A DNA stretch of 10,428 nt, from IMG/VR virus record IMGVR_UViG_2778260992_000009, positions 1 to 10,428 of that record, one strand, 5' to 3'. This DNA comes from a virus. Its lineage: Duplodnaviria > Heunggongvirae > Uroviricota > Caudoviricetes. Made by a program: the position numbers. Of the stretch, positions 6,001 to 9,000 are shown piece by piece; position 1 is the stretch's first letter, and each line of letters begins with the position of its first letter.

Positions 6001-9000
6001 TGAGTTGATAGCGTTCACTCCAGGTAAAATCGATCTCACCTTCAGGGGGAAGGTCATTAACGACAGGAAAATTCGTGGCAACAGCTTTAAAATAGCTGCT
6101 CAGTTTTTTACCTGACTTAACGATCAGGTAGTCCAGAGTGGCACAGGTCGATTCAAAATCGTCGCTTGCCCACAAGACGACGTCAGGTTCACCGGATGAT
6201 TTTTTCGCTTTCCGTAACAGGAAGAGTGGTTTTGTGCTCATTGTTTTTTAACCTCAACTCAGATTAAAATTCGTTTTGTTCAGTGAATGATCTTGCCGGA
6301 TACACACTGTTCATAGCCTGCGCCATACGCAGGCTATTTCTTTCAGATTTCACCGTTTAATTTCATTGCAATCAGAGTTGCCAGAAATCCGGCTTTTTTT
6401 TCTGCGGGCAGATTCTTTCCGATGTGAACCAGGCACATTTTTGTGACACCTTCATCAAGTGTTTTTACGTTGCCTGATGGACCGTCGATATCAACCACAG
6501 TGAATGGGGTTTCTTTATTTTCTGTTTTAATCACGTAGCCAATACGCTTTCCTTCCAGATTAACCTCGTGAACAATGTCATCGGTAGTTACAACAGTGGC
6601 TTCATAATTGGTAATCATGTTTTTCTCCTTAATTAAGGTTGAGTGAATCCCTGCCATTGCTGGCATAAATTCAGTTTCGAATAGTCAGTTAATTAAAGTT
6701 CGTGTGCCATCTGGTCTTTTTCGGCACATATTTCACTACAATATTTTTTCATTTCCGTCGTTGGGATAACTCCACGCATGAAATGAAGTGGTTTTGTAAT
6801 GCTTTTGCTTTTTTCAACTTCTTTATTGCAAAGGTGGTAAGCACATTTTATTTTCTTAGTCATCACCATGACTCCGCCTTTACAGGTAAACCATCACGAC
6901 CGAGGAAGACTTTAATCATGCAGTCAGTAATGCATGTTTTTGTGGTCAGGTTACGAATATAAAGTTTTCGCTTTTTAATATTGTTTGCCGAGGCAATATA
7001 TGTCCGGCCTTCATGAAGAACATAATCGCCAGGAGTCACACACTGACGTGGTATTTCATCAGTTCCGAAGTGATGTGCAATCATAATTATCTCCATTTTT
7101 ACAAATGAACTTTGTTGATGCGGTGCCTGGTGCCTCCAGGTGACGTTAACCAGTTAACAATTAACGCCGGATAATCCACCCATAACACTGATGCTTTTAA
7201 CTGTTCCGCGTGCGCTTAGCCGCATTCACCGCATCACAAAATTCACTTTAAAAAGGGGCGGACATCAGCCGAACTTCAAGAAAAAACTGATGCCGCCAAG
7301 ACTACACACAGCAATGTCGTTATTTACAACCGGAGGCGCACTCCCACCATTTAAATTTCACAGACAAGACCGGACTCTTTATGGATACCGGAAATGCGCC
7401 TTCGTGTTGTATGCCTGTCTTTTTACCACTTTAGGCTCGGTGGTATACTGGAGTTCTCACACAACCAGTAAGGAATTGCTTATGCCTATTCAATCTCAAC
7501 ACAAAAATATTGATTATCTTTCCGCCAGATTAGAGGCTACCACGCTTGTTCTTGAAGAACTTGTTAAACTTCTTACGCCAGAGCAGCGTGAAAAACTGAA
7601 TCTGGCAATTGCCGGGCGTTGTCCGGGCGTGAAAAATGCGTCTCTCAGGAATAGAAATTCTCTCGCATATCAATTATTACAGTTCATCAATGATGGCGTC
7701 CGCAGCAGCGATTAATTTTTCTAATGCCTCTTCGACATGATAATTGTATGGTTGTAGTGACCTGACATCTGTAATTGCATTAGCCAGGTTTCGTGCCATT
7801 ACGGCTGGTGCGATTTTTTTTTTGCTACTGATACCCGGCTGGCGAGTTCCAGTGCGAGACGTGCCTGCCTTGGAGTTAGCTCTCTCTCTCCTTTGCCATT
7901 GTTGATGCTTGTACAGACAATTCATACGCCAGGCAAAATACAGCATTATTCGTTTCTGGCGGGTCAATACTCTGAGTAAATGTCATCTTATCTCTCCCCT
8001 TAACGCCGGGTGGCGGAACTAAAACCTACAGCGCCGTGCTGTTCTTGATATAAATATTAGTAACACGGATATTTTAAGTCAACAGTGTGACGTATTATGT
8101 TTTTGATTTAGTAACTAAGTAAATGTTTTTTCAAGGGATAAATATTAGTTATACAGCTGATTTGCAGAAGTTATGGCACAAAAAAACCGACTAAGACGTC
8201 GGTTTTTTTGTTGTGGATGGGGTGGTGAGCGGTGGCTACTGGTTGCGTTTCTTTAGTGCCAGCATGTTCTCGAAGGCTTCCTCGTAGAGCTTGTTTAGTC
8301 CACGTAGCTGGTTAAGGAGTTTGGCTTTTTCTGACGCAGGTAGAATCTCGAAGAGGTTAAGTAACTCTGCCTGTTCTTCATTGACCAGCCTCCATCCTTT
8401 GCCTGAAAAGCTATCATCATAAGTATCTGATGATCTTACATAATTCATTAAGTCTTTAAGGTCTTCTCGAATGTCCTCTGGTTTTACCTTTAACAGAGCC
8501 GCAAATTTTAGCGCAGCGTCGGTATTTACCGGTATCTTGCCGTTCAGATACTGACTAACGGTGCCTTGAGATTCGAATCCCAACAACTCAGCCGCCAGCT
8601 CTTGAGTCAGCTTCAGCTCTTTTTTTCTTGCATTCCATGCGGCTTTTAAATTCTTGCTCGCTTCTGGAGTTGCAATCACGTCACGTGTTTTTTTCATACA
8701 TAGAGTTTATTTGTTTTACCAATATTATCAAAGATAGTCTGACTATTGATCTTTAAAATTAGTGGGGCTAATATTTGCTCGAGGCATAACGTAGAAGGTT
8801 GGCTATGAACTTAAGAGACTATTTAAAAGAGAAAAATATCACCCAGCTACAGTTTGGGAAGCTAACGGGTTTATCTCAGGTGCATGTAAGTCGAGTGCTG
8901 GGGGGCTATGAAAGATTCAGCCCTGAAAAAGCATTACGTGTTGCTGAAGTAACGAATTTCGAGGTTACACCTCATGAACTCCGGCCTGATATCTACCCGA

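What the first reader, a model, noticed from the sequence alone, without database searches (positions are those of the whole stretch)
7422..7715. Promoter-equipped 77-aa ORF of unknown function in the sieB slot
Rac and lambda carry the superinfection-exclusion gene sieB between kil and the N region. Here that slot holds a short helical 77-aa ORF on the opposite strand to the early-left operon. It has its own extended -10 promoter and a good SD, and its 3' end overlaps the convergent N-position ORF by 39 bp. Independently transcribed small genes in this slot are typical of morons with exclusion or defence roles, so this is the best candidate here for an undescribed accessory function. The tool's 174-aa ORF includes a hydrophobic stretch upstream (CAFVLYACLFTTLGSVVYW), so a longer membrane-anchored product cannot be excluded.
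Basis: partly seen in the sequence, partly recalled or inferred. Interest (0 to 1): 0.55.

Follow-up and report, generated by a model that had tools for sequence, protein, structure and literature searches.

The report
Swappable small gene in prophage accessory slot
The 77-codon gene is real and has its own conserved promoter, but it is one of at least a dozen unrelated small genes that Rac/e14-type prophages swap into the same promoter-equipped slot facing the early-left operon, and its function is still unknown.

Summary
ORF77 (7482-7715, +) is a real protein-coding gene: dN/dS is about 0.2 against copies down to 49% identity. Its ATG, AAGGAA ribosome-binding site and TGgTATACT extended -10 are conserved from E. 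coli to Pantoea. It is "rac10" of phage Rac-SA53. The family is small, restricted to Enterobacterales, and has no sequence or fold relatives.

The 174-aa membrane-anchored reading is refuted. Its upstream half lies antisense to a kilS/DicF-like sRNA, and its frame is not conserved.

The "N-position ORF" is not N-like. It is a frameshifted copy of a 101-aa first early-left gene ("rac11") that starts at ATG 7986.

The main new result concerns the 70-nt promoter/leader (7412-7481). It is a conserved expression module present in about 9% of complete E. coli genomes, including ymfI of K-12 e14. It drives at least 12 unrelated small cargo genes. In the overlapping pairs (ORF77, YmfI-like and one more family) the cargo type co-varies with the C-terminal half of the convergent partner, while the partner's N-terminal half recombines freely.

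The moron/accessory reading is supported. A defence or exclusion role is plausible but has no direct evidence. I judge this a new member of a known kind, of moderate interest.

The parts
7412..7481 (+). Conserved slot promoter plus 5' leader. It holds the -35 TTTACC (7422-7427), the extended -10 TGgTATACT (7441-7449), the expected transcript start near 7456, and the SD AAGGAA (7470-7475). It also holds three inverted repeats: GCCTG/TAGGC, TACCAC/GTGGTA and TACTGG/CCAGTA.
   Evidence: Promoter scan. About 90% of positions are invariant between E. coli and Pantoea, while the coding DNA is 55-68% identical. Found in 52 IMG/VR contigs, in 475 of 5426 complete E. coli genomes, and upstream of ymfI in K-12 e14. 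Covariation in the stems.
7482..7715 (+). ORF77 coding sequence (77 aa; 'rac10' of phage Rac-SA53). It is a soluble three-helix protein with a conserved core RLEA..L.LEE...LL(T/S)PEQR..L...I..R.P.VKNAS...YQL.
   Evidence: dN/dS 0.17-0.30 with mostly third-position changes. The family has 32 clusters, all in Enterobacterales and all 'hypothetical'. AF2 pLDDT 74.5 with helices at 3-29, 33-46 and 61-74. Rac-SA53 annotation.
7773..7823 (+). Candidate intrinsic terminator for the ORF77 transcript: a 13-bp hairpin followed by a T10 run. It lies inside the partner coding region.
   Evidence: Terminator scan and RNA fold. The overall z-score is only -1.1, and the hairpin is not clearly conserved in L003 or L004. 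Candidate only.
7677..7986 (-). Convergent partner gene, the first early-left (pL) gene ('rac11', same slot as ymfJ/ydaG-ydaF). It is a pseudogene here, spread over three frames. It is 101 aa when intact, and its last 13 codons overlap ORF77.
   Evidence: Three-frame translation. Intact 101-aa copies in L005, L007-L011 and Rac-SA53. dN/dS about 0.3. The family has 26 clusters. AF2 gives four helices at pLDDT 66.
7814..7823 (.). T10/A10 homopolymer. The in-frame allele is T8, the window has T10, and L006 has T7.
   Evidence: Alignment with L005, L006, L007 and L088.
7880..7889 (.). (CT)5 repeat with one extra CT unit compared with intact copies. This is the second frameshift in the partner gene.
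7987..8022 (-). Conserved early-left leader and ribosome-binding site (GTTCCGCCACCCGGCGTTAAGGGGAGAG...ATG). It forms the right-hand boundary of the exchangeable cassette.
   Evidence: 100% identical to K-12 Rac upstream of ydaG. A 23-nt core is identical in Pantoea.

Best explanation
ORF77 is a genuine small cytoplasmic helical protein. It is one allele of a hypervariable accessory (moron) slot found in Rac/e14-type lambdoid prophages.

A conserved sigma-70 promoter with an extended -10 and a conserved roughly 26-nt leader (window 7412-7481) drives whichever cargo occupies the slot. Transcription runs against the repressor-controlled early-left operon and into the 3' half of its first gene (rac11/ymfJ class). 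The pair therefore forms a convergent 'excludon'. In the lysogen the cargo should be expressed, and its transcript is antisense to any leaky partner mRNA. After induction, pL transcription runs back over the cargo gene.

The unit exchanged between phages is 'cargo plus the C-terminal half of the partner'. I therefore infer that ORF77 works together with, or against, the C-terminal domain of the first early protein. The logic would resemble SieB/Esc: a prophage-expressed factor and a matching factor made early in lytic growth.

Shown: the gene is real and under purifying selection; the promoter/leader is conserved; the cargo is interchangeable; cargo and partner C-terminus are linked; the homologous K-12 slots are transcribed.

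Inferred: promoter activity at this particular locus; antisense cross-regulation; protein-protein cognacy; any role in phage-phage conflict.
For: Coding selection: dN/dS about 0.2 against L004 (78% aa identity) and Pantoea L003 (49%). The ATG, SD and -10 are conserved, while the upstream frame is not.

The cassette boundaries are identical in three lineages, and the cassette replaces sieB-ydaF-ydaG of K-12.

The same promoter/leader precedes at least 12 unrelated cargo families of 59-148 aa. These include YmfI-family, ECs_2282 CxxC, ECs1072 and Zn-ribbon-like proteins.

K-12 e14 ymfI carries the same promoter and converges on ymfJ with a 63-bp overlap beside the repressor. ymfI-ymfJ and sieB-ydaF are listed as convergent excludons from K-12 RNA-seq (PMC12288877). 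ymfJ is induced late in the SOS response with log2FC 4.8, while ymfI changes little (PMC11002266).

Every ORF77-family locus examined has a convergent partner with a 36-39 bp overlap. The one exception is L011, whose ORF77 copy has an altered C-terminus and overlaps by 17 bp.

ORF77-type cargo goes with partner C-terminal type C0 in 24 of 25 non-redundant loci, across three unrelated partner N-terminal types. YmfI-type cargo goes with C-terminal type C3 with either N1 or N2 partner N-termini.

Independently transcribed genes antisense to lytic operons are characteristic of morons (PMC7067206).
Against: There are no expression data for this locus or for Rac-SA53.

The left arm of the best-supported stem (TACTGG/CCAGTA, with compensatory A-U to G-C changes) overlaps the -10 hexamer. 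A transcript starting near 7456 could not contain it. The conserved block may therefore also, or instead, act as an operator or as RNA on another transcript.

The cargo-to-partner linkage could be simple physical linkage caused by the overlap. A C0-like partner also occurs with an unrelated Zn-ribbon cargo without overlap (L030/L031).

The partner is frameshifted in the window and in L006 while ORF77 stays intact, so the pair is not obligatory.

There are no PADLOC, Pfam, PHROG or NCBIfam hits and no significant fold matches. Co-folding could not be run.
Confidence: 0.6

Rival explanations
1. ORF77 is a lysogenic-conversion or host-directed moron that acts independently of the partner. The cargo-to-partner-C-terminus association would then only reflect the fact that two overlapping genes cannot be separated by recombination.
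For: The genes share 36-39 bp, so there is no intergenic space for exchange. A C0-like partner occurs with a different, non-overlapping cargo in L030/L031. Several cargo types have no detectable convergent partner within 200 bp. ORF77 is intact where the partner is broken.
Against: The co-inherited partner segment is about 45 codons, well beyond the 13-codon overlap. Recombination has repeatedly joined it to three different N-terminal halves without ever separating it from ORF77, even at saturated dS. A second cargo family (YmfI) shows the same pattern.
Confidence: 0.25
2. ORF77 is an antitoxin-like inhibitor. It would neutralise leaky expression of the first early-left protein in the lysogen, so its role would be prophage-internal control rather than defence.
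For: The linkage to the partner C-terminal domain. The partner is repressor-controlled and strongly induced on SOS in the e14 homologue. Loss of the partner with retention of ORF77 resembles toxin loss with antitoxin retention. Neighbouring early genes of this phage type, such as KilR and YdaS/YdaT, are toxic (PMC5700373, listed).
Against: Neither protein matches any toxin or antitoxin family. The arrangement is convergent, not a bicistronic operon. No toxicity data exist for rac11/ymfJ-class proteins.
Confidence: 0.12
3. The functional product is the antisense RNA (the excludon transcript), and the ORF is incidental.
For: The promoter/leader is far more conserved than any cargo. The transcript must run antisense into the partner gene. 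P22 sieB is controlled by the antisense RNA sas (PMC12197685).
Against: ORF77 shows clear purifying selection at the protein level: dN/dS about 0.2 and a conserved start and SD. The family keeps a conserved protein core down to about 33% identity.
Confidence: 0.03
4. The real product is the 174-aa ORF (7191-7715), a membrane-anchored SieB-like protein.
For: The frame is open in this window and contains one hydrophobic stretch.
Against: The upstream frame is open for only 10-108 codons in relatives. The region up to 7410 is homologous to K-12 DNA that lies between kilR and sieB with no annotated protein gene and carries kilS. It is antisense to DicF-like and STnc100-like elements. The hydrophobic stretch spans the cassette boundary and the promoter itself. 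There is no similarity to SieB.
Confidence: 0.01

Closest known systems
ymfI-ymfJ of the E. coli K-12 e14 prophage (both uncharacterised)
   Same: The promoter/leader sequence is the same. The cargo sits on the strand opposite the early-left operon. There is a convergent overlap (63 bp) with the first repressor-controlled gene, right next to the repressor. YmfJ shares the N2-type N-terminus seen in some ORF77 partners. The transcripts overlap in K-12 RNA-seq.
   Different: YmfI (113 aa, NCBIfam NF051477) is unrelated in sequence to ORF77. The YmfJ C-terminal half is of a different type (C3 rather than C0).
sieB of Rac, lambda and P22 (superinfection exclusion, with Esc and the sas antisense RNA in P22)
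   Same: The position is the same (between kil and the first pL genes). The orientation is opposite and the gene has its own promoter. It converges on the early-left genes (sieB-ydaF is also a K-12 excludon). The K-12 sieB upstream region keeps a diverged version of the GCC.G.../CACCAC...GGTGGT repeats.
   Different: There is no sequence similarity. The Rac SieB sequence read shows long hydrophobic stretches, whereas ORF77 is 77 aa, soluble and has none. ORF77 has no internal in-frame Met that could give an Esc-like product. No exclusion phenotype is known for it.
Phage morons and prophage accessory hotspots (lambda rexAB, bor, lom; HK97 gp15; P2/P4 defence hotspots)
   Same: A gene that is independently transcribed, variably present and flanked by conserved phage sequence. 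Many alternative cargoes occupy one site.
   Different: Here the promoter and leader belong to the conserved backbone rather than to the cargo. The cargo is also linked to a domain of an adjacent lytic-cycle protein. The comparison with P2/P4 hotspots and HK97 gp15 rests on my own knowledge, not on a test here.
Excludons (convergent genes with overlapping transcripts giving mutually exclusive expression)
   Same: Convergent ORFs overlap by 39 bp. One gene is on in the lysogen and the other after induction.
   Different: Transcript overlap and RNase III dependence have not been measured for this pair.

Membership tests
SieB superinfection-exclusion proteins | Sequence similarity to SieB | tested here: not met
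   BLASTP against K-12 Rac SieB gives no alignment at E<=100. No Pfam, PHROG or NCBIfam hit.
SieB superinfection-exclusion proteins | Hydrophobic, membrane-type segments | tested here: not met
   The 77-aa product has no hydrophobic span (sequence; AF2 gives an amphipathic helical model). The upstream hydrophobic stretch is not part of the gene.
SieB superinfection-exclusion proteins | Location between kil and the first pL genes, on the opposite strand, with its own promoter | tested here: met
   Synteny with K-12 Rac and the promoter.
SieB superinfection-exclusion proteins | Aborts lytic growth of superinfecting phages | not testable with these tools
   Needs a phage challenge of cells that express ORF77.
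Moron / prophage accessory locus | Own promoter, independent of the flanking operons | tested here: met
   The extended -10 promoter is conserved in 84 loci (38 unique 75-mers). The homologous K-12 ymfI and sieB genes are transcribed in lysogens. This is sequence-level evidence and evidence by homology, not a measurement at this locus.
Moron / prophage accessory locus | Own terminator | tested here: inconclusive
   There is a hairpin plus T10 at 7773-7823. The fold z-score is -1.1 and conservation is poor.
Moron / prophage accessory locus | Presence/absence or replacement polymorphism among otherwise similar prophages | tested here: met
   The cassette is in 18 of 5426 genomes, while the slot promoter is in 475. 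There are at least 12 alternative cargoes.
Moron / prophage accessory locus | Expressed during lysogeny and dispensable for lytic growth | not testable with these tools
   Needs RNA-seq or 5'-RACE and a deletion mutant.
Excludon | Convergent genes whose transcripts overlap | tested here: inconclusive
   The ORFs overlap by 39 bp. Transcript overlap is shown only for the K-12 homologous slots.
Type II toxin-antitoxin pair | Co-transcribed bicistronic operon with recognisable toxin or antitoxin domains | tested here: not met
   The genes are convergent, and neither has a family hit.
Lambda N-type antiterminator (for the convergent 'N-position' gene) | N-terminal arginine-rich motif in the true reading frame, and family-level similarity | tested here: not met
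   The true frame reads MTFTQSIDP..AVFCLAYELS..MAKERELTPRQARLALELASR. The Arg-rich stretch is out of frame. No Pfam or PHROG hit.
IraP anti-adaptor / LTXXQ (CpxP-Spy) families | Score above the Pfam gathering threshold | tested here: not met
   14 bits against cut-offs of 23-24. The signal recurs in only 3-4 closely related members out of 9.
Known anti-phage defence proteins (PADLOC-DB 2.0) | Match to any defence-system model | tested here: not met
   No hits for ORF77, its homologs, the partner, or ten alternative cargoes.

The most novel reading that the evidence does not exclude
The slot encodes a family of two-part cognate modules. One part is a lysogen-expressed small effector (ORF77, YmfI, the Zn-ribbon proteins and others). 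The other part is a matching C-terminal 'specificity' domain grafted onto the first early-lytic protein. This arrangement would let a prophage act against rivals, or lock its own early programme, while its own induction supplies the matching counter-domain. There would be a dozen or more specificities, shuffled behind one conserved promoter.
Probability: 0.2. Interest if true: 0.8.

Novelty: new member of a known kind. Interest (0 to 1): 0.5.

Why it matters
The slot promoter is unannotated, yet it sits in about 9% of complete E. coli genomes, including K-12. It marks a compact, easily recognised hotspot whose cargoes (ORF77/rac10, YmfI, ECs_2282, ECs1072 and others) are all of unknown function.

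If the cargoes are exclusion or regulatory factors paired with a domain of the first early protein, this would be a tractable system. It has small genes, one promoter, K-12 representatives and an inducible phage (Rac-SA53). It could be used to study how temperate phages combine rival exclusion with self-escape, and how mosaic exchange keeps interacting parts together.

The work also corrects the annotation of this region: the 174-aa ORF is not real, and the 'N-like' ORF is a frameshifted gene.

Tried and rejected
- **Family libraries.** Pfam, PHROGs, NCBIfam and PADLOC scans of ORF77, its homologs and the intact partner gave nothing significant.
- **IraP and LTXXQ leads.** They stayed sub-threshold across family members and were rejected.
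- **Sequence searches.** Exhaustive profile HMM search of 1.8 billion representatives found only five further ~80-aa relatives. PDB sequence profiles matched only designed helical proteins.
- **Direct comparisons.** ORF77 against SieB, and the partner against YdaF and YdaG, gave no similarity.
- **Species-representative genomes.** Both the peptide-pattern scan and the exact promoter pattern found nothing. The K-12 e14 variant differs at a few bases from the exact pattern.
- **Cargo4 (75 aa, helical).** Tested as a remote ORF77 relative and found unrelated.
- **Known RNA family in the promoter/leader.** Rfam has no hit there at E<=1.
- **Literature.** No paper characterises kilS, Rac-SA53 rac10/rac11 or ymfI/ymfJ function.
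- **Considered by eye only.** A LexA box in the promoter (CTGT-N8-CACT does not fit) and pairing between the kilS-like sRNA and the CACACAAC leader (only about 6-7 bp). I did not pursue either.
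Full report
**What the window is.** The window is the early region of a Rac-type lambdoid prophage integrated next to ttcA. It is 100% identical to E. coli O8:H28 BMH-17-0027. On the minus strand it carries intR, xisR, ralR (with the RalA antitoxin RNA, Rfam 218 bits), recT, recE, a racC-like gene, ydaE and kilR. These are followed by the region in question, an HTH repressor (8236-8697), a cro-like gene and ydaT.

**Check of the observation.** The 77-codon ORF runs from ATG 7482 to the stop at 7715 on the plus strand, and PGAP calls exactly this ORF. 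The promoter-like site is TTTACC-16 nt-TATACT with a TG two bases upstream (7422-7449). AAGGAA lies 6 nt before the ATG. The 3' end overlaps a convergent ORF by 39 bp. Promoter-like matches are common by chance: 8 were found in 2 kb against about 4 expected. Conservation has to carry the argument, and it does (see below). Synteny with K-12 Rac confirms the 'sieB slot'. Homology runs through kilR and the annotated sRNA kilS up to window 7410, stops, and resumes for 39 bp at 7984-8022 (the leader and start codon of ydaG) and again at ydaT. Window ~7411-7983 therefore replaces sieB-ydaF-ydaG.

**The gene is real; the long version is not.** I collected copies from E. coli (L005-L011, 12 IMG/VR contigs), a diverged enterobacterial contig (L004, 78% aa identity) and Pantoea sp. 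JZ2 (L003, 49%). In all of them the ATG, the SD and the -10 are conserved. Pairwise dN/dS is 0.17-0.30 with third-position changes dominating. Upstream of the ATG the frame stays open for anywhere between 10 and 108 codons. The 'hydrophobic stretch' spans the module boundary at 7410 and the promoter. The upstream part is antisense to a DicF-like hairpin (7256-7310, 41 bits, equivalent to K-12 kilS) and an STnc100-like element (7077-7266, 44 bits) on the early-left strand. The 174-aa reading is therefore rejected.

**The convergent gene.** Homologs of the convergent ORF start MTFTQ(G/S)I(D/N)P.ET.N.VFCLAYELS...MAKERELTPRQARLALELASR. In the window this N-terminus is encoded from ATG 7986 in a different frame from the listed 96-aa ORF. 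The gene passes through three frames. Compared with intact 101-aa copies, including phage Rac-SA53, the window has +CT in a (CT)n repeat (7880-7881) and +TT in a T-run (T10 instead of T8, 7814-7815). Another genome has T7. The arginine-rich, N-like appearance comes from the out-of-frame segment. The intact protein is under purifying selection (dN/dS about 0.3). It matches no family in Pfam, PHROGs, NCBIfam or PADLOC and models as four helices at low confidence (pLDDT 66).

**A conserved pair.** In all eight lineages examined, the ORF77-family gene converges on a partner ORF. The lineages are the window/L005, L004, L003, L024, L026, L028, L025/L032 and L029. The tail overlap is 36-39 bp, and the pair sits beside an HTH repressor, cro-like and YdaT immunity region. 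L011, whose ORF77 copy has an altered C-terminus, overlaps by only 17 bp. The partner's most conserved motif (L-I-x-A-A-D-x-L-L) is encoded within the overlap.

**The promoter/leader is a portable module.** Between E. coli and Pantoea the 65-70 nt from GCCTG to the SD are about 90% invariant, while the two coding regions have drifted to 55-68% nucleotide identity. The same sequence precedes a completely unrelated Cys-rich 92-aa ORF in L030/L031. An exact-pattern scan found it in 52 IMG/VR contigs. The ORFs immediately downstream fall into at least 12 unrelated families of 59-148 aa. All are of unknown function: PHROGs 4753, 25023, 17494, 8894 and 5286; NCBIfam YmfI_phage, ECs_2282_CxxC and phage_ECs1072; and a sub-threshold Zn-ribbon match. 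None has a PADLOC hit.

The YmfI hit led to K-12 itself. In the e14 prophage, ymfI is preceded by gcctgtcttttcaccacttcaggctcggtggtatgctggagttctcacacagccagcaagcaaggaa. It converges on ymfJ with a 63-bp overlap, next to the repressor. By sensitive blastn the module is present in 475 of 5426 complete E. coli genomes and is never annotated. By megablast it is in 66. The ORF77 cassette is in 18.

**Evidence that such slots are transcribed.** ExcludonFinder lists both ymfI-ymfJ and sieB-ydaF among convergent gene pairs with overlapping transcripts in K-12 RNA-seq (PMC12288877). In an SOS time course ymfJ is induced late (log2FC 4.83, protein detected), as expected for a CI-type-repressed first early gene, while ymfI changes little (PMC11002266). 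Genes transcribed from their own promoter antisense to lytic operons are considered typical morons (PMC7067206). This is evidence by homology of the promoter, not a measurement at this locus.

**Cargo co-varies with the partner's C-terminal half.** The partner is mosaic. Its N-terminal half comes in at least three unrelated types:
- N0: MTFTQ..AVFCLAYELS..
- N1: MEFxxLPxEVQxIAAxxLADKI..
- N2: MEELKHVIALLLEDAKRLQQxEPNAGTEARI..

ORF77-type cargo is joined to one C-terminal type (C0) in 24 of 25 non-redundant loci, across N0, N1 and N2. YmfI-type cargo is joined to another C-terminal type (..PLPC.G..R.YH.T.VKALR.E..) with N1 or N2, including K-12 YmfJ. A third cargo family behaves the same way. 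The unit of exchange is therefore 'cargo plus partner C-terminal domain', bounded on the left by the conserved promoter.

There are caveats. A C0-like domain also accompanies the Zn-ribbon cargo without overlap (L030). Several cargo types had no convergent ORF of at least 55 aa within 200 bp. Overlapping genes are hard to separate by recombination in any case.

**Mechanism proposed.** ORF77 is one cargo of a lysogen-transcribed accessory slot. Its transcript runs into the first early-left gene, possibly ending at the hairpin plus T-run at 7773-7823 (weak evidence). The pair would then behave as an excludon: cargo on and partner silenced in the lysogen, and the reverse after induction. The linkage to the partner's C-terminal domain suggests a cognate protein pair. 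The closest known logic is P22 SieB/Esc with antisense control by sas (PMC12197685). Rivals are listed separately: plain linkage with a host-directed moron, an antitoxin-like inhibitor of the early protein, and an RNA-only function. A defence or exclusion role has no direct support.

**Unexplained.** The module contains three inverted repeats. On 24 unique variants 92% of cells pair, against 23-42% when the partners are slid. No shuffle out of 500 reaches the observed covariation score. One pair is A-U in 16 sequences and G-C in 6, with no one-sided changes. That pair joins the fourth base of the -10 hexamer to the base before the SD. L024 and L028 use a register-shifted stem (CCTTGC/GCAAGG versus CCTTAC/GTAAGG). 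Stem A shows GCCTG/CAGGC, GCCCG/CGGGC, GCCTT/AAGGC and, upstream of K-12 sieB, GCCCGG/CCGGGC. The left arm of the best stem overlaps the -10. The structure therefore cannot sit in an mRNA started at ~7456. It may act in the antisense read-through RNA, in a transcript from further upstream, or as palindromic operators.

**Verdict.** The moron interpretation is supported, the defence interpretation remains open, and the long-ORF and N-like ideas are refuted. ORF77 is a new, uncharacterised member of a known kind of locus. The conserved promoter with interchangeable cargo and a co-varying partner domain is the more interesting result, and it is directly testable in K-12 (ymfI/ymfJ) and in Rac-SA53.

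Noticed in passing
window 7256-7348 (-) and 7077-7266 (-): There is a DicF-like hairpin RNA (Rfam DicF 41 bits, just under the gathering score). It sits at the position of the K-12 annotated sRNA kilS. An STnc100-like element (44 bits) lies between it and kilR. This block (7100-7486) is conserved at 90-95% in about 4600 of 5426 E. coli genomes and is mostly unannotated.
   Followed up: partly
window 7814-7823 and 7880-7889: The first early-left gene is broken by two slippage-type insertions: T10 against the in-frame T8, and one extra CT unit. A third allele (T7) occurs in strain P393-F10. This could be real phase-variation-like inactivation or a homopolymer assembly error.
   Followed up: partly
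window 7412-7481: Three inverted repeats in the slot promoter/leader show compensatory changes across variants. One stem overlaps the -10 hexamer, so its role is unresolved. It could be RNA on another transcript or an operator.
   Followed up: partly
window 7987-8022 (-): The early-left leader GTTCCGCCACCCGGCGTTAAGGGGAGAG is identical in K-12 Rac (upstream of ydaG). Its core is identical in a Pantoea prophage, although the downstream genes differ. It contains a small GC hairpin (CGCC-ACCC-GGCG). It may be a regulatory or recombination-linker element.
   Followed up: no
partner proteins in L005, L024-L029, L046, L053, L073, L089: The first early-left protein is a mosaic of at least three unrelated N-terminal halves and many C-terminal halves, which implies recurrent recombination inside the gene.
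   Followed up: partly
L004 7092-7519: One relative has an extra ~430-bp insert with a 69-aa plus-strand ORF (7254-7463) between kilR and the slot promoter.
   Followed up: no
L031 2251-2723: A PaaA2/ParE toxin-antitoxin pair is inserted between the repressor and the first early-left gene of a related prophage. This is another accessory insertion site next to the slot.
   Followed up: no
window 1992-6241 (-): Homology to K-12 Rac breaks between 1983 and 4400. RecT here is 367 aa and RecE 1048 aa. PGAP annotates RecT at 3981-2893 of L001, a shorter start. K-12 recT and recE are 810 and 2601 nt, so the recombination module is a different allele with a long acidic insert in RecE.
   Followed up: no
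window 8176-8212: A strong bidirectional terminator-like hairpin (aaaaaaaccgac...gtcggttttttt) lies just downstream of the repressor gene, between it and the pL region. A weak STnc370 hit (E 0.71) overlaps it.
   Followed up: no
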